The notes beneath the pieces are model-generated. The model had not been told where the DNA came from and made no database searches. It was given only the letters and a program-made list of their open reading frames with translations. A stretch of 64,000 bases of DNA from the human T2T-CHM13v2.0 reference genome, Homo sapiens: the NCBI RefSeq assembly GCF_009914755.1, contig NC_060947.1; one strand, written 5' to 3'. The translations under genes were made by a program, and so were the position numbers. Position 1 is the stretch's first letter; every line of letters begins with the position of its first letter. Below are positions 37,096 to 45,899 of this stretch, piece after piece.

Positions 37096-39215
37096 AAAAA
37101 CACCCCAAAACAAAAAAATCTTTACCCCCAAAACCAAATAAAAACCCCCCTTGTTTTATCTAAATCATTATTAAATGCAGTCCTTCCTTAAAATTTTTAC
37201 ATTTTGTTATATTTACATAACGATAAAATCATTTCCCACTTGATATAAGAACAAAAATCTGTTAATTCATTATATTATTAGAATAAGCAAATTAATTACT
37301 GCTAACATCAAATTCATTTTAATTTCCATGACCGTCATATAGAGTTCTATACATAGAGAGTGGAACTCCACAATGAAAACGTGCTTAACTCTTTTTATTT
37401 CCTCCTCACAGCATGTTCTGCTTTAATGACATATTGAGGGAATAAAATACATGGAATTTTATTCTAGTATCAAGTGAGATTTTAAAATATATGTGAAAAT
37501 ATTTGATAAATGCTTTTTTTCCTAATGGGTGCACTTAGAAATTATAGTTTTAGGTATATTTATATTTTGGCCATATAGTCTCTTAAATAAGTAAAACAAA
37601 GCATACTGTAACAAACTATTTTGGTCAAAACTCTAAACAGTATATAGACTTCAAAATAACTTACTCAAAATTCATGAGATTTAGATTTCATGCTCAACTT
37701 ATCAGGAGGAAACACATCCAAAATAGAAGTGGGTTGACTCTATAACTTCTACTCAATGGCTATATCTACATAACTGTGAATTAAAACAAACAAAAAACAA
37801 AAGCTAGAAAACTGAAATTGGTTCTTAGTCATTATGTCTAGTTATGACAAATCGAGACACTATGAGATGATTTTCTCCTCCGGAAACCAGGCATTCAAAG
37901 ACTTCCAGTGACTCAGGATGGGAGTGTACAGAAGAGAAAAGAGGAACGAAGAAAGCACTGATGCAAGAAGACACAATTCATCAATTCATAACCACACCCT
38001 GATCTCCACTACCATAGCATTACAGCCATGATCTCTTTCAGCCTTCTCTCTGCCACTATTGCCCTCAGTGCTGATTTTAATAGATTTTACCTCTTTAGGA
38101 TGGTAGTGATGAGGAGGGATACTGAACTACCGTGATTTGCCGTGAATTTTCCTAGGAAGGGCCCCAGGGGTCTGCCATGTAAGCGTAACAACTCTTATGT
38201 GAGTGTATCTCACTTTATACACAAACACTGTAATAATTTAATGTTATACATTTCTCAACCTGATATTATTTCCCTTTGATTATTTAGGTTGCACCTACCT
38301 CATGAGAAAGATTTGGAGAAGGTGTGAAAACTTTATCCCAAATCTTAGATGCTCTATAAATGTCTTCCATTTTATAAAGGCTATCTGAAAGAGAAGCAAG
38401 GACAATTCCGAAAAATTCTTCAATTTTAGGTTTGGTCAAACCAACAATAAATACAAAGAAATGGCTTCATCTGAGTAACTGATACTTCCAAGACTTGGCC
38501 ATTGCAGTCTTTTGTAGATTATATAATTTACTAGTTAGATTAAAAATTATGGCAGGAGGAAATCTTAGAATGCTTTGGCTACCTATCTACGGATACAAAA
38601 CCATGGTGTATAATTCCAACCTTATTAAAGCATTAGAACATTGGTTTTTAACTCTCTATTGGATTAGGACCAGGTATACTGGCACAGCTCAGTAAAACCT
38701 AAGATTGGAAATAATTTGAAATCTCAAAGTCATTGTCACCTTACCCATTTCACCTGGCTAATTACTTCCTCTCCTTTCATACAACCCAACAAATATGTAT
38801 TCACATTAGTGGGGAAAAGAAGCTCTCCCTATATTTACACAATGGAGTGATTTTTGCCCTTCTAATTAACCAGCATGAGTCAAACGTTTAAAAGGTTCCA
38901 GAAGAAACTGTGCCTTCAATTAACATTCACAGTTTCTAAATTAATCACTGCTGACCTTAACATGCAGGAGTCTTAAAGACATGTTTCACATTTAAAAAAT
39001 GGTAATTTTATTCAAAGAAATCTAACTACCTATGTTTCATAAGTGTTTGGTCATTGTTTTTCTCCTATCACTGCATAAGGAGTCCTAGAGTTTGGAGCAT
39101 TGTTTCATCACATCTCTGGATAAAAGCCCTACAAATGATCTTGAGCATGATAATGATATTGTCTTCAATATAAAAATTAATAGTGACTCATTATACACTT
39201 TGAAAAATCCATACC

Positions 39216-39322
39216 ATGCTCACTTCAGCAGCATATATACTAAAATTGGAATGATACAGAGAAGACTAGCATGATCCCTGTGCAAGGATGACACACAAAT
39301 TCATGAAGCATTCCATATTTTT
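39216..39322 (+). pseudogene. RNU6: Full-length U6 snRNA retro-pseudogene, 5' part of a U6-L1 chimera
   Basis: 107 nt matching recalled U6 (GTGCTCGCTTCGGCAGCAC...TTCCATATTTTT) with 12 transitions, 7 of them at CpGs. ACAGAGA box intact. No recognisable PSE/TATA promoter; directly preceded by the TSD. Confidence 0.97.
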
Positions 39323-42300
39323 CAATAAATGTCCCCATCGGCAAGTTAGAAAGATCTCAAATTAACAACCTAACATCACAACTAAAAGAACTGGAGAAGC
39401 AAGAGCAAACCAACCCCAAATCTAGCAGAAGACAAGAAATAACCAAAATCAGAGCAGAACTGAAGGAGACCGAGACACAAAAAGCCATCCAAAAGATCAA
39501 GGAATCCAAGAGCTGTTTTTTTTTAAATATTAATATAATTGATAGACTAGACTGCTAGCTAGACTATTAAAGGGATAAAAGAGAGAAGACCCAAATAAAC
39601 ACAATTAGAAACGACAAAGAGAATGTTACCACTGACCACATAGTAATACAAACAACCATCAGAGACTACTCTCAACGCCTCCATGCACACAAACCACAAA
39701 ATCTAGAATAAATGGATAAATTCCTGGACACATACACCCTTCCAAGACTGAACCAAGAAGAAACTGAAGCCCTGAACAGACCAATAGCAAGTTCCAAAAT
39801 TGATTCAGTAATGAACAGCCTACCAACCGAAAAATGCCCAGGACCGGAAGGATTCACAGCCAAATTCTACCAGATATACGAAGAGATAGTACCATTCCTA
39901 CTGAAACTATTGCAAAAAAATTGATAAGGAGGGACTCCTCCCCAAATCATTCTATGATTCCAGCATCATCCTGATACCAAAACCTGTCAGAGAGACAATA
40001 AAAAAGAGAAAACTTCAGGCCAACATCCTTGATGAACACAGAGGCAAAAATCCTCAACAAAATACTTGTAAACCGAATCCAGCAGCACATCAAAAAGCTA
40101 ATCCACCACAATGATGTAGGCTTTATCCTGGGATGCAAGGCTGGTTCAACACACACAAATCAATAAATGTGATTCATCACATAAACCAAACTAAAGATAA
40201 AAACCACATGATTACCTCAATAGATGCAGAAAAGGCTTTCAGTAAAATTCAACATCCTTTCATGTTAAAAACTTTTAATAAACTAGTTATTGAAGGAATA
40301 TACCTCAAAATAATAAGAGCCATCTAGGAGAAACCCACAGCCAACATCATACTAACCAGGCAAAAGCTGGAAGTATTCCCCTTGAAAACTAGCAAAAGAC
40401 AAGGATGCCCTTTCTCACCATTCCTGTTCAACATAGTATTGCAAGTCCTGGCCAGAGCAATCAGGCAAGCGAAAGAAATAAAGATCATTGAAACAGGAAG
40501 AGAGGAAGTCAAACCATCCCTGTGTGCAGACAACATGATTCTGTATCTAAAAAGTTTTCACAGTCTTGGCCCAAAAGCTCCTTGAACTGATAAACAACTT
40601 CAGCGAAGTTTCAGGATACAAAATTGATGTGCAAAAATCACTAACATTCCTATACACCAACAACAGCCAACCCGAGAGACAAATCAGGAACACAATCCCA
40701 TTCACAATTGCCACAAAAAGAATAAAATACTTAACAATTCAGCTAACCAGAGAGGTAAAATATCTCCACAATGAGAATTACAAAACACTGCTCAAAGAAA
40801 TCAGAGATGACACATACAAATGGAAAAACATTCCGTGCTCATGGATAGGAAGAATCACTATCATTAAAACAGCCACATTGCCAAAGCAATTTACAGGTTC
40901 AACGCTGTTCCTATCAAACTACCAATGACATTCTTCACAGAACTAGAAAAACTATTTTAAAATTCACATGGACCCAAAAAAGAGCCCAAATAGCAAAGGC
41001 AATCTTAAGCAAAAACAAAAAAGGAGGGGGCATAATATGACTCTACTTCAAACTATATTACAGGGCTACAGTAACCGAAACAGCAGGGTACTGGCACTGA
41101 AACAGACACACAGACAAAGGGGACAGAATAGAGAGAGCCCAGAAATAAGGCTGCACACTTACAGCTACCTGGTCTTCCACAAAACTGACAAAAACAAGCA
41201 ATGGGGAAAGAATCACTATTAAACAAATGGTGCTGGCATAACTGGCTAGCGATACGCAGAAGACTGAAACTGGAACCCTTCCTTACACCATATACAAAAA
41301 TCAACTCAAGATGGATTTAAGACTTAAATGTAAAACTCAAAACTATAAAAACCCTGGACGATAACCTAGGAAATATCATTCTGGATATAGGAACTGGCAA
41401 AGATTTCATGACAAAGATGACAAAAGCAATCGCAACAAAAGCAAAACTTGGCAAATGGGATTCAATTAAACTAACTTCTGCACAGCAAAAGAAACTATCA
41501 ACAGAGTAAATAGACAACATATACAGAATGGGAGAAAATTTTTGCAAACTATGCCTCTGGCCAAGGTCTAATATCCAGCATCTATAAGGAACTTAAATTT
41601 ACAAGCCAAAACAAACAACCCCATTAAAAAGTGGGCAAAGGACATGAACAGATACTCTTCAAAAGAAGACATACATGTGGCCAACAAACACATGAAAAAA
41701 AGCGCAACACCCTTGTAGCATAGTTTGAAGTCAGGTAGTGTGATGCCTCCAGCTTTGTTCTTTTTGCTTAGGATTGTCTTGGCTACACAGGCTCTTTTTT
41801 GGTTCCACATGAAATTTAAAGTAGTTTTTTCTAATTCTGTAAAGAAAGTCAATGGTAGCTTGATGGTGATAGCATTGAATCTATAAATTAATTCGGGCAG
41901 TATGGCCATTTTCACGATATTGATTGTTCCTATCCATGAGCATGGAATATTTTTCCATTGTTTTTGTCCTCTCTTATTTCGTTGAGCAGTGGTTTGTAGC
42001 TCTCCTTGAAGAGGTCCTTCACATCCCTTTTACGTTGTATTCCTAGGTATTTTATTCTCTTTGTAGCAAAGGGCTAATATCCAGAATCTACAAGGAACTT
42101 AAACAAATTTACAAGAAAAAAAAAACAACCCCATCAAAAAGTTGGCAAAGGATGTGAACAGACACTTCTCAAAAGAAGACATTTTTGTGGCCAATAAACA
42201 TATGAAAAAAAGCTCATCATCACTGATCATTAGAGAAATGCAAATTAAAACCACAATGAGATACCATCTCATGCCAGTTGGAATGGTGATCATTAAAAAG

Positions 42301-43730
42301 TCAGGAAACAACAGATGCTGGAGAGGATGTGGAGAAATAGGAACACTTTTACACTGTTGGTGGTATTGTAAATTAGTTCAACCATTGTGGAAGACAGTGT
42401 GGCGATTCCTCAAGGATCTAGAACCAGAAATACCATTTGACCCAGCAATCCCATTACTGGGTATATACCCAAAGGATTATAAATCATGCTACTATAAAGA
42501 CACATGCACACGCATGTTTATTACAGCACTATTCACAATAGCAAAGACTTGGAACCAAGCCGAATGCCCATCAATAATAGAGTGGATAAAGAAAATGTGG
42601 CACATATACACCATGGAACACTATGCAGCCATAGAAAAGGATGAGTTCATGTCCTTTGCAGGGACACGGATGAAGCTGGAAACCATCATTCTCAGTGAAC
42701 TAACACAAGAACAGAAAACCAAACACCGCATGTTCTCACTCATAGATGGGAGTTGAACAATGAGAACACATGGACATAGGGAGGGGAACATCACACACTG
42801 GGGCCTGTCAGGGGGTGGGGGGCTAGGGGAGGGATAGCATTAGGAGAAATACCTAATGCAGATGACAGGTTGATGGGTGCAGCAAACCACCATGGCATGT
42901 GTATACCTATGTAACAAACCTGCACATTCTGCACATGTATCCCAGAAGTTAAATTTAAAAAAAAGCACAACATCACTGATCATTAGAGAAATGCAAATCA
43001 AAACCACAATGAGATACAATCTCACGCTAGTCAAGATGGCAATTATCAAAAAATCAAAAAATAACAGATGTTGGCAAGGTTGTGGAAACAGGAGAATGCT
43101 TATACACCATTGGTGAAAGTGTAAATTAGTTCAACCATTGTGGAAAGCAGTACAGGAGTTCCTCAAAGAGCTGAAAACAGAACTACCATTCAACCCAGCA
43201 ATCCCATTACTGGGTATATACCCAAAGCAATATAAATTGTTCTACCATAAAGACATGCACATGTATGTTCACTGCAGCCCTATTCATTATAGCAAAGACA
43301 TGGAAGCAACCTAAATGCCCATCAATGGTAGACTGAATAAAGAAAATGTACATATACACTGTGGAATACTATGCAGTCATGAAAATGAATGAGCTCATGT
43401 CTTTTGCAGGAACATGGATGGAGCTGGAGGCCATTATCCTAAGCAAACTAATGTAGGAACAGAAAACCAAATACCACATGTTCTTACGTATAAGTGGGAG
43501 CTAAATGATGACAATACATGGATACAAAAAAGGGGAAAAACAGACACTGGAGTCTACTTGAGGGTAGAAGGTGGGAGGAGGGAGATGATCAGAAAAAATA
43601 ACTAATGGGAATGGGTACAAAGTATAGTACTTGAGTGATGAAATAATCTGTACACCAAAGCTCCACGACACAAGTTTACCTATATAACAAACCTGCACAT
43701 ATACCCCTGAAACTAAAAATAAAAGTTAAA
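39323..43730 (+). mobile_element. 5'-truncated old L1PA (L1PA13/L1PREC2-like), ORF2 through 3'UTR, with disrupted frames; interrupted at 41711-42957
   Basis: ORF2p peptides [38 protein letters not shown] and [10 protein letters not shown] (decayed FADD RT motif); 3'UTR ends CCCCTGAAACTAAAAATAAAAGTTAAA. Confidence 0.95.
41711..42957 (+). mobile_element. Younger L1PA (PA6/7-like) with a 5' inversion, nested in the host L1
   Basis: 41711-42069 is antisense ORF2 (minus ORF reads [15 protein letters not shown]...[12 protein letters not shown]). 42067-42957 is sense (ORF 42142-42756 is the ORF2p C-terminus). TSD AAAAAAAGCGCAACA (41695-41709) / AAAAAAAGCACAACA (42958-42972). Confidence 0.93.
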
Positions 43731-44321
43731 CAATCATAAATACTTAGAAAACTCATTCATTTCTAAATATATATTGATTCATGTTCAGTAAATATCTAAC
43801 AGCACTTAATATGTACAGGTACTACTGTGCTGGAAATACAAAAAAGCATGGTACTACTATAAAAATAGGCACATAGACCAATGGCACAGAATAAAGAACC
43901 CAGAAATAAACTCAAATACTTACAGCCAACTGATCTTTTACAAAGCAAACAAAAAAATAAAGTGGAGAAGGGACACCCTTGAACAAAACAGACAAAAACT
44001 CCTGCCTCTGTGAAATTTACATTCAGGGGAGCTATATACAACAAAAGTATAAATAAGTATTGTACACACTCACCCTTCATATCCATAGGGGAATGGTTCC
44101 AGAACCTTCCATGCAGCCCCAAATCAGAAGACGTTCAAGTTCCTTATATGAAATGGTCTAATATTTGCATGTAAACTACACTCATGTTCTCATTTAATTT
44201 AAATAATCTCTAGATTATTTATGATACCTAACAGAATGCAAATGTTATATAAATAGTTTTTATACTGTATTGTTTAGAGATTAATGCCAATAAATAAAGT
44301 CTGGACATTTAAAAAAGAAAA
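43731..44321 (+). other. L1 3' transduction: L2 remnant, internal L1PB-like piece, truncated MER2 and A-rich tail
   Basis: Lies between the L1 end and the second TSD copy GAAAAATCCATACCAT (44322-44337; first copy 39202-39217). AATAAATAAA at 44289-44298, then AAAAAAGAAAA from 44311. Confidence 0.88.
44067..44310 (+). mobile_element. MER2, 3'-truncated
   Basis: Homologous to the MER2 at 12654 (TGGTTCCAG, CAAGTTCCTTATATGAAATGG, TCTCTAGATTATTTATGATACCTAA); lacks the right TIR. Confidence 0.85.
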
Positions 44322-45899
44322 GAAAAATCCATACCATACTATATTTCACATCACCTGCATTTTCCTGCAGGAAGACAGCGGCATACAAATTTCAGAATAT
44401 TCTTATAATTTTCTTTATAAAAGTGGAATTATTACAATTGTTAAAGAAACCCAAATGCAGGTGGTTTATATTGAAAATCAAAGTAAGGAGTTCCTGATGG
44501 GAAACATTTTCCATAGCATTTCAAGGATTCAGAGACACTAATGTCTACTTTCTTTAAGAAATCCTAACTCTGGGGAGACTCAAAGATTGAATCCACCCAA
44601 TCTTACAATGAGGAAAAAGAAAGCTTTTCTAACAGATTTAAAAAAACACTGCCTATGATATATGCAGCCAGGGACTTCATGCATTATCTAAAGCTACGAA
44701 CAAAAATGTGTGAGGTAAATAACTTTATTTGCGAAGCCCTATTATTCAACCTGTTGTTGCCTAATGGTACTGAGGCTAGCGCCCTTCTAGGAGCAACCCT
44801 GGGCTCATCTTGAAACTCTGGTCCTGTATGTCTGACTCTGCTTCTTGAACTCTCTTATTCTGTGTATAGTACGTTTGTCCTCGATGGCAGAAACCTGGTT
44901 CATATTTTTCTCTCCCTTTGTCATCTTGGATTCTGTGCTACCTATATTGTATGTTAACTTGATACTGGAAAATAAAATGTCACTGCTTAAAGGAACCAGG
45001 ATGTTAGCACTAAAATTCTAAAGTCCCATGTAGTTCAAAGTTTTTTTTTTCACAGATGAAGAAACTGTAGCCCAGAAAAATGTGTCTTCCCCAAGGTCAC
45101 ACAGTTAGAAATAGTTTGTTACAATAAAATTTCACCGATCGGTGTCCCAATTTCATATTTAGACCTCCTCCTGTTAATGAATTTTTGTCATCCAGATGAA
45201 TTAATCCCACTTCAGCTGTTTAAAGAGAAGGGTGAGAGTTTCTCTCCACATATTTCTTTATCTTCCTTACACACATGCCCATTCTAAACTATATCCTGCA
45301 GACTTATAAAGCATACCCCACTGACAGGGTTAAATGAAGACAGGCCGAATGTGTGGCAATATCAGAGAAATATTCCCCTATATAAGCATCCATGGGTGTT
45401 ATTCATACTATATCAAGTGATTAGAAATTTCAGGAAGTGCTTACTTAAACAGCCAGTGTGGTGGTAAGCAGAACACAAATCTTAACCCGGAGACAGCGCA
45501 ACCTGGAGGCTGGTTGCAACATTTAGCAAGTTCTCGTAAGGAAGCATTCATGAACAGATTAAAATATCGGCAAACTTCTCCCCAAAAATACCACTGGAAA
45601 AGAATACCTAAACACTAATTTGATGATGACAAAATAGGTTTTCTTTTCTAATAAGTTCTAGTTTAGGGAACTTACTGTATTTTACCCATTTTCATTGAAG
45701 ATGAGAAAAACTGTAACTTACCTTCTCGCTGACTCAAAAAGTCATGAAAAATTTTACAGATGGTTTATAGATAGGCCCGGAGTCATAGATGATACCTGTA
45801 ACTGCCAAGGAACTGCAGTTCCAAGGTTTCTCAAAACTCCTAACTACCAACTATGCTGCTTCCTCTAGTATTCCATGTTACCTTTGCCCTGAAAAATTA

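What the first reader, a model, noticed from the sequence alone, without database searches (positions are those of the whole stretch)
39202..44337. One retrotransposed unit: U6 snRNA + L1 + 3' transduction inside a single 16-bp TSD
Seen: GAAAAATCCATACCAT lies immediately before a full-length U6 (39202-39217) and recurs 5.1 kb later (44322-44337), right after AATAAA and an A-rich tail. It does not recur at the L1 end (43730), which has no real poly(A). U6 ends in T5 and joins directly to L1 ORF2 sequence. The left junction CTTT/GAAAAA is an L1 endonuclease-type site. Established: U6-L1 chimeras arise by RNA ligation (RTCB acting on the U6 2',3'-cyclic phosphate) or template switching, and L1 read-through gives 3' transductions. 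Inference: a three-part RNA (U6, ~3.1 kb of L1, donor flank) was integrated in one TPRT event. Repeat annotation would show it as several unrelated fragments. A chimera combined with a transduction, from an old L1PA subfamily, seems uncommon.
Basis: partly seen in the sequence, partly recalled or inferred. Interest (0 to 1): 0.8.

Follow-up and report, generated by a model that had tools for sequence, protein, structure and literature searches.

The report
U6–L1 chimera carrying chr12 sequence
An ancient retrotransposition event on the human X chromosome pasted in, as one unit, a U6 snRNA copy, half an L1 element and about 450 bases copied from an intron on chromosome 12; it is a well-preserved but essentially ordinary product of known L1 mechanisms.

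Summary
GAAAAATCCATACCAT occurs exactly twice in the window, at 39202-39217 and 44322-44337. It brackets a full-length U6 ending in T5, a 5'-truncated old L1 that starts near ORF2p residue 302-307 and runs to its natural 3' end, and a 591-bp non-L1 tail with AATAAA and an A-tail. No other repeat of 9 bp or more brackets a sub-part.

The U6/L1 part is already published: Law & Burns 2026, Table S2, U6 sheet row 166, L1PREC2. That entry lists no TSD and no 3' part.

New here:
- The tail's only relative in the genome is an intronic chr12 site.
- That site continues past the window's poly(A) point.
- It has no L1 beside it.
- The L1/chr12 joint has no A-tail.
- A 142-bp piece of a third L1 lineage sits inside the chr12 part.

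Best reading (0.55): a read-through (3' transduction) RNA from a donor L1 since lost from chr12, joined to U6 and inserted once. Main rival (0.25): reverse-transcriptase template switching from a chr12 transcript. Interest is modest.

The parts
39202..39217 (+). Left copy of the 16-bp target site duplication, GAAAAATCCATACCAT. It is preceded by cttt, giving an L1-endonuclease-type site.
39216..39322 (+). Full-length U6 snRNA pseudogene (RNU6-266P) ending in T5. It has 12 of 107 differences from the genome's six identical best-scoring U6 copies, and 7 of 7 CpGs are destroyed.
   Evidence: published as U6:2-107 in PMC13174262 Table S2
39323..41709 (+). Old L1 body, first part, in sense orientation. 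It starts at about ORF2p residue 302-307 of 1275, and the reading frame has decayed.
   Evidence: published as L1PREC2, 2,389 bp
41710..42962 (+). A later, independent insertion that is not part of the unit: a younger L1 of twin-priming form. It has an inverted piece at 41710-42069 and a direct 3' piece from 42066 to its A-tail, with its own 9-10-bp TSD (AAGCGCAACA / AAGCACAACA).
   Evidence: 5 family copies align flush on both sides with a 9-base overlap
42963..43730 (+). Old L1 body, second part, running to the family's natural 3' terminus ...AAAATAAAAGTTAAA. No A-run follows.
43731..43735 (+). CAATC: five bases of uncertain origin at the L1/chr12 joint. They could be a decayed tail remnant, diverged chr12 sequence or untemplated bases.
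43736..43838 (+). chr12-derived segment, part 1: 81% identical to G000:C12:80565837-80565944, minus strand.
43839..43980 (+). A 142-bp sense piece of L1 ORF2 from a third L1 lineage. It is absent from chr12 and has no tail or TSD of its own. Its boundaries are uncertain by 1-3 bases because of CAA and T overlaps.
43981..44310 (+). chr12-derived segment, part 2: 84-85% identical to C12:80565510-80565833, minus strand. It ends 12-16 nt after AATAAA (44289-44298), whereas chr12 continues beyond that point.
44311..44321 (+). Remnant of the poly(A) tail, AAAAAAGAAAA.
44322..44337 (+). Right copy of the 16-bp target site duplication.

Best explanation
One L1-mediated target-primed reverse transcription event, a few tens of millions of years ago, inserted a single composite RNA at cttt|GAAAAATCCATACCAT. 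An L1 of an old primate lineage once sat, antisense, in an intron on chr12. Its transcript read through its own weak polyadenylation signal and was cleaved and polyadenylated about 450 nt downstream, at an AATAAA inside a DNA-transposon-like repeat. This is a 3' transduction. The RNA was broken within ORF2, and mature U6 (five U's with a 2',3'-cyclic phosphate) was ligated to the new 5'-OH end. ORF2p then copied the whole chimera from its poly(A) tail. The donor L1 allele on chr12 was later lost and only the empty allele survives.

Shown: the single TSD, the order and orientation of the parts, the chr12 origin of the tail, and RNA-type truncation at a poly(A) site. Inferred: that a donor L1 existed on chr12, that the U6 joint was made by ligation, and the age.
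For: A single exact 16-bp TSD is present and there is no alternative repeat of 9 bp or more for any sub-part. The U6 is full-length and ends in T5 directly on L1, matching the mature U6 form that RtcB ligates to 5'-OH L1 RNA (PMC6789731, passages). The L1 runs to its natural terminus.

The tail's non-repeat parts hit only the window itself and chr12 in the whole genome: 2 of 2 candidates in each of two searches. chr12 extends beyond both ends of the copied stretch. The window copy stops 12-16 nt after AATAAA and then has an A-tail, so it was copied through RNA.

The source stretch is intronic and antisense to an FN3-domain exon. It has no evident promoter of its own, and an upstream L1 reading through is the usual way such sequence becomes polyadenylated RNA.

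The ages of the parts agree. U6 has 12 of 107 differences. The L1's own branch is about 8-9%. The chr12/window pair is 81-85% identical, or about 8-9% per branch.

The published MSA pipeline flags U6 and L1 as arriving together (PMC13174262 Table S2). About 25% of L1 insertions carry transductions (introduction of PMC13009371).
Against: No L1 lies next to the chr12 source. The joined 40.4-kb stretch (30 kb on the upstream side) contains only a ~235-bp piece of a younger L1 3' end, 8.4 kb away on the upstream side.

There is no A-tail between the L1 terminus and the chr12 sequence: at most 5 bases (CAATC) lie between them. By comparison, 72% of partnered transductions show two A-tails (PMC13009371). 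Of the 18 same-family copies (out of 19) in which the terminus was found, only 2 have no leading A-run. This is only moderate evidence, since 4 of those 18 copies are no more A-rich than the window in the first 12 bases.

The chr12 bases at the joint are not a textbook TT|AAAA site. The nearest one lies 15 nt upstream and its sequence is not carried in the window.

The 142-bp L1 piece inside the tail is absent from chr12 and needs an extra event.
Confidence: 0.55

Rival explanations
1. Multi-part chimera made by template switching. ORF2p began reverse transcription on the poly(A) tail of an independent chr12 transcript. It then jumped onto the 3' end of an L1 RNA at or just before its tail. 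The U6 part was added by ligation or by a further jump. The 142-bp piece of another L1 lineage would record a brief jump out and back. No donor L1 on chr12 is needed.
For: There is no L1 at the chr12 source and no A-tail at the L1/chr12 joint, where 5 unassigned bases could be untemplated. A foreign L1 piece is embedded with only 3-nt and 1-nt overlaps. Triple chimeras attributed to double template switches are described in fungi and mouse, and two were reported in human without recognisable flanking repeats (PMC2104539, passages; PMC4476161, passages).
Against: It needs a self-standing polyadenylated transcript from an antisense intronic stretch, and there is no evidence for one. Landing exactly at the L1's natural terminus has no stated reason. 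The resemblance between the L1 end and the chr12 bases upstream of the joint is no better than chance for A/T-rich DNA: 68 of 212 AT-matched windows score as well. Leaving and returning to the chr12 template at adjacent bases, with nothing lost or repeated, would be remarkable. ORF2p's preference for poly(A) ends was raised in the literature against switching onto U6 (PMC6789731). The prior is far lower than for a transduction.
Confidence: 0.25
2. The unit is a single U6-L1-chr12 insertion by either route above, but the 142-bp L1 piece was added later at chrX. It would have been captured as filler during repair of a double-strand break, so it says nothing about how the unit formed.
For: Relative to chr12 it is a clean insertion, with 3-nt and 1-nt microhomologies and no tail or TSD. 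Its estimated own branch (5.3%) is lower than that of the L1 body (7.9-9.3%).
Against: The difference in branch length is within about 1-1.5 standard errors for 142 bases, and both estimates are biased by picking the best-matching copies. The piece's lineage is about as old as the main body's: flank identity among copies is 84.1% against 80.7%.
Confidence: 0.35
3. Two or more separate retrotransposition events that only appear to share one TSD. For example, a chr12 retrocopy could have inserted into the tail of an older U6/L1 chimera.
For: Doucet et al. name this as a general alternative for triple chimeras (PMC4476161).
Against: A second insertion into the first one's tail should leave A-tracts on both sides of the newcomer, and there is none at 43730. 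No second TSD is present: the longest shared words at the inner joints are 7-8 bases. The ages of the parts agree.
Confidence: 0.05

Closest known systems
U6/L1 chimeric pseudogenes (Buzdin 2002, cited in PMC2104539; Doucet 2015, PMC4476161; Moldovan 2019, PMC6789731; Law & Burns 2026, PMC13174262)
   Same: A full-length sense U6 ending in its U-tract is fused to a variably 5'-truncated L1, flanked by a TSD at an endonuclease-type site, with a 3' A-tail. This very locus is row 166 of the U6 sheet in Table S2 of PMC13174262.
   Different: The catalogue entry ends at the nested younger L1. It lists no TSD and nothing 3' of the L1. Here the unit continues for 591 bp beyond the L1 terminus before the tail and TSD.
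L1 3' transduction (partnered type)
   Same: L1 3' end, then unique sequence from another locus, then AATAAA, an A-tail and the TSD. The transduced stretch ends 12-16 nt after a canonical signal, as PMC13009371 describes for most transductions.
   Different: The source locus has no L1 in this genome. No internal A-tail separates the L1 from the transduced sequence. The transduced stretch carries a 142-bp L1 piece that the source lacks.
Tripartite chimeric retrogenes attributed to double template switching (Gogvadze 2005, as cited; Gogvadze 2007, PMC2104539)
   Same: Three or more RNA-derived parts in one orientation within one pair of direct repeats. The mouse examples are B2-U6-L1 with 15-16-bp repeats.
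   Different: In those cases L1 is the 3'-most part. Here L1 is in the middle and a non-repeat genomic transcript is 3'-most, which a read-through transcript explains more simply. According to that paper, the two earlier human tripartite elements had no recognisable flanking repeats, whereas this one has a perfect 16-bp pair.

Membership tests
U6/L1 chimeric pseudogene | Full-length U6 at the 5' end, in the same orientation as the L1 | tested here: met
   Rfam RF00026, model positions 1-105 of 105, 102.1 bits, + strand. The L1 ORF2 is in sense on the + strand.
U6/L1 chimeric pseudogene | U6 ends in its oligo-U tract and joins directly to a 5'-truncated L1 | tested here: met
   ...CCATATTTTT|CAATAAATG... 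at 39322/39323. The L1 starts at about ORF2p residue 302-307.
U6/L1 chimeric pseudogene | The whole unit is flanked by a TSD at an L1 endonuclease-type site, with a 3' A-tail | tested here: met
   Exact 16-bp repeat, with 0 of 100 shuffles giving two matches; cttt|GAAAAA site; tail at 44311-44321.
U6/L1 chimeric pseudogene | U6 and L1 appear at the same point in phylogeny | not testable with these tools
   No primate genomes are held. The published table marks found_by_msa_prediction = 1 for this row, but I did not see the alignment itself.
L1 3' transduction | Non-L1 sequence between the L1 3' end and the A-tail/TSD, ending at a polyadenylation signal | tested here: met
   43731-44310, AATAAA at 44289-44298, and cleavage 12-16 nt later.
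L1 3' transduction | The extra sequence maps to a unique locus elsewhere | tested here: met
   Only the window itself and C12:80565510-80565944 are found.
L1 3' transduction | That locus carries the source L1 immediately upstream, in the same orientation | tested here: not met
   No L1 adjoins the site. In the 30 kb on the upstream side the only L1 is a ~235-bp younger 3' end 8.4 kb away. A donor allele that has since been lost cannot be excluded.
L1 3' transduction | The source element's A-tail is retained between the L1 end and the transduced sequence | tested here: inconclusive
   There is no A-run at 43731, and at most 5 unassigned bases. However, 2 of 18 same-family copies also lack a leading A-run, and 4 of 18 are no more A-rich in the first 12 bases. 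28% of modern partnered transductions lack two detectable tails.
Template-switch multi-part chimeric retrogene | Copies of different RNAs fused head to tail within one TSD | tested here: met
   U6, L1, chr12 sequence and a piece of a second L1 lineage, all in one orientation within one TSD.
Template-switch multi-part chimeric retrogene | The parts come from separate RNA molecules rather than one read-through or ligated RNA | not testable with these tools
   This needs evidence of an independent chr12 transcript, or of a donor L1 in other primates. Junction microhomology was uninformative.

The most novel reading that the evidence does not exclude
A five-segment mosaic (U6 | L1 lineage A | chr12 RNA | 142 nt of L1 lineage B | chr12 RNA again) written in a single reverse-transcription run with three or more template changes. 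By the account in PMC2104539 of the two earlier human cases, it would be a human multi-part chimera that still shows a perfect TSD. It would show that ORF2p can start on a non-L1 polyadenylated RNA and then move onto L1 RNA.
Probability: 0.2. Interest if true: 0.6.

Novelty: new member of a known kind. Interest (0 to 1): 0.3.

Why it matters
The locus is a clean, fully bracketed example showing that a U6-tagged L1 RNA can also carry non-L1 sequence at its 3' end. Repeat-based catalogues truncate such units: the published entry stops at a nested L1 and records neither the TSD nor the 3' part. Tracing the 3' part to a unique chr12 intron gives a rare handle on an old event. If primate genomes show an L1 at that chr12 site, it is a textbook transduction from a donor that has since been lost. 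If they never do, it becomes evidence for template switching from a cellular RNA onto L1 RNA. Either way it bears on mechanisms that are already described and does not open a new question.

Tried and rejected
1. Homology-guided switch at the L1/chr12 joint. The chr12 bases just upstream of the joint resemble the L1 terminus, but 830 of 16,160 windows overall, and 68 of 212 AT-matched windows, score at least as well. I dropped it as evidence.

2. A donor L1 near the chr12 source. None was found in the joined 40.4-kb stretch C12:80555510-80595944.

3. Sibling insertions sharing the chr12 sequence. There are none: the only hits are the window itself and chr12.

4. The 142-bp piece as part of the nested younger L1. 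Rejected, because its best-matching copies are only 79.4% (inverted part) and 75.8% (direct part) identical to that element.

5. Dating the 142-bp piece against the rest. This was inconclusive. The figures are biased because only the best 19-20 of about 1,800-2,500 candidates were used.

6. Alternative TSDs for sub-parts. None of 9 bp or more exists.

7. Literature.
- 'RNU6-266P' is in 0 papers.
- The TSD string is absent from all 6 supplementary files of PMC13174262.
- The TSD string and 'chrX' are absent from the 3 supplementary files of PMC4476161 that were searched; file 1 could not be searched.
- Szak et al. 2003 is not held.
- I saw no statement in the passages read about a U6/L1 chimera with a 3' transduction. 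'Transduction' occurs 0 times in PMC6789731, and the 8 occurrences in PMC13174262 were 5' transductions or reference titles. This is not a full literature search.

Full report
**Observation.** The 16-mer GAAAAATCCATACCAT occurs exactly twice in the 64-kb window, at 39202-39217 and 44322-44337, even allowing two mismatches. None of 100 dinucleotide-preserving shuffles gave two matches. The left copy is preceded by cttt and followed by U6. The right copy follows AATAAA (44289-44298) and the A-rich run AAAAAAGAAAA. No other direct repeat of 9 bp or more links the left flank, the U6/L1 joint or the L1 end with the right end.

**Anatomy.**
- **U6.** Rfam places a full-length U6 at 39216-39322 (positions 1-105 of 105, 102 bits). 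It ends in five T's and runs directly into sense L1 ORF2 sequence.
- **L1 start.** Read through with X at the stops, that sequence aligns to human ORF2p from about residue 307 (envelope 302) of 1275.
- **Nested L1.** The old L1 is interrupted at 41710-42962 by a younger L1 with an inverted 5' piece and a direct 3' piece (twin-priming form). This element has its own 9-10-bp TSD. In 5 family copies both sides align flush with a 9-base overlap. It is a later, separate event.
- **L1 end.** The old L1 resumes at 42963 and runs to 43730. That is the natural terminus (...TAAAATAAAAGTTAAA) seen in other copies of the family, where an A-tail follows.

**The 3' segment.** A whole-genome search with 43731-44321 returned the window itself and one structured hit on chr12. 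Query positions 6-111 (81%) and 250-578 (84%) lie next to each other on the minus strand of C12:80565510-80565944. Positions 109-250 matched many L1 copies instead (40 of 4,203 candidates were scored). Two sub-queries that avoid repeats (43731-43838 and 43981-44110) each found only the window and chr12, 2 of 2 candidates. So chr12 is the only relative.

Reading chr12 shows three things:
- The sequence continues on both sides.
- At the 3' side it runs on into the rest of a DNA-transposon-like repeat up to an inverted-repeat-like end. The name MER2/Tigger type is my recollection and was not tested.
- The window copy stops 12-16 nt after AATAAA and then carries an A-tail.

The stretch was therefore copied from chr12 to chrX through a polyadenylated RNA. 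About 0.9 kb away on chr12, on the opposite strand, lies an exon encoding a fibronectin type III domain. The source is thus intronic and antisense. By map position the gene is probably PTPRQ; that is recalled, not tested.

**What does not fit a textbook transduction.**
- **No donor L1.** No L1 adjoins the chr12 source. In the joined 40.4-kb stretch, the 30 kb on the upstream side holds only a ~235-bp piece of a younger L1 3' end, 8.4 kb away.
- **No internal A-tail.** Only CAATC separates the L1 terminus from firm chr12 homology. In a recent long-read study, 72% of partnered transductions showed two A-tails (PMC13009371, passages). The terminus was found in 18 of the 19 same-family copies. Of those 18, 2 have no leading A-run and 4 have 7 or fewer A's in the next 12 bases; the window has 0 and 7. 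The missing tail therefore counts against a transduction, but only moderately.
- **A foreign L1 piece.** A 142-bp sense piece of L1 ORF2 (43839-43980) sits inside the chr12-derived sequence. chr12 is uninterrupted at that point, nothing is lost or duplicated, and the overlaps are only CAA and T. The piece belongs to a third L1 lineage. Its 19 best copies are 91.6% identical to it on average, but only 75-79% identical to the old body and to the nested young L1. That lineage is about as old as the main one: flank identity among copies is 84.1% against 80.7%. The piece's own estimated branch (5.3%) is not clearly shorter than the body's (7.9-9.3%), given about 2% sampling error and selection bias. 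I cannot tell whether it arrived with the unit or later.

**Age.** The U6 differs from the genome's six identical best-scoring U6 copies at 12 of 107 positions. All 7 CpGs are lost, and 4 of 91 non-CpG sites have changed. The L1 branch (about 8-9%) and the chr12/window pair (81-85% identity) agree with this. All parts are compatible with one event a few tens of millions of years ago. The date is an inference from typical primate substitution rates, not a measurement.

**Mechanism.** An L1 antisense in the chr12 intron read through to the next AATAAA. The RNA was cut in ORF2 and ligated to mature U6. Moldovan et al. report that mature U6 ends in five U's with a 2',3'-cyclic phosphate and that RtcB joins it to 5'-OH L1 RNA (PMC6789731, passages). 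ORF2p then copied the chimera from its poly(A) tail at an endonuclease-type site. A read-through L1 also explains why an otherwise promoter-less antisense intronic stretch became polyadenylated RNA. I give this 0.55.

The main rival (0.25) is template switching from an independent chr12 transcript onto L1 RNA. It would account for the absent donor, the absent tail and perhaps the 142-bp piece. It lacks any evidence for such a transcript. The apparent junction homology is no better than chance. Leaving and re-entering the chr12 template at adjacent bases is hard to credit. Two separate insertions sharing one TSD is unlikely (0.05), because no inner A-tract or second TSD exists.

**What is known.** The U6/L1 chimera at this locus is already published. 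In Law & Burns 2026 (PMC13174262), Table S2, U6 sheet, row 166 lists chrX:22527836-22527941 (U6:2-107) with chrX:22527942-22530330 (L1PREC2). It is flagged as found both by proximity and by the MSA timing prediction (supplement rows read). The lengths match window 39217-39322 and 39323-41711.

That entry stops at the nested L1 and lists no TSD. The paper's 'transduction' passages concern 5' transductions. Triple chimeras are described in fungi and mouse, and two were reported in human without recognisable repeats (PMC2104539, passages; PMC4476161, passages). In what I read, I found no description of this locus's 3' part, its TSD or its chr12 source. One supplementary file of PMC4476161 could not be searched, and Szak et al. 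2003 is not held.

**Verdict.** This is a real, well-preserved single-event composite. It is a new, more complete description of a catalogued U6/L1 chimera, with its 3' part traced to a unique chr12 source. It works by known mechanisms, and the open point (transduction against template switch) can be decided with primate alignments that I could not access. Interest is modest (0.3).

Noticed in passing
window 41710-42962: A younger L1 is nested in the old L1. It has twin-priming form, with an inverted piece at 41710-42069 and a direct piece from 42066 to its A-tail. About 495 nt of L1 are missing between the two pieces. It has a 9-10-bp TSD (AAGCGCAACA / AAGCACAACA) whose one mismatch is a CpG transition.
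   Followed up: partly
window 43839 versus 41065/41078 (old-L1 coordinates): In L1 coordinates, the 142-bp piece starts 13 nt past the inversion breakpoint of the nested younger L1, even though the two belong to different lineages. This is probably chance.
   Followed up: partly
L002 / G000:C12:80564465-80565296: About 200 bp downstream of the chr12 source segment lies another L1 of the same inverted-plus-direct (twin-priming) form. It is 86-92% identical to the window's nested young L1.
   Followed up: no
L002 2831-3160 (+), i.e. C12:80566840-80567169: An open frame encoding a fibronectin type III domain (best PDB matches FN3con and DCC, E about 1e-5) lies on the strand opposite to the source segment. 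By recalled map position the gene is likely PTPRQ.
   Followed up: partly
window 44090-44310 and G000:C2:216036964-216037191: The last ~230 bp of the chr12-derived segment also match a chr2 locus at 79%, so that part is itself an old interspersed repeat. The polyadenylation signal used lies inside it.
   Followed up: no
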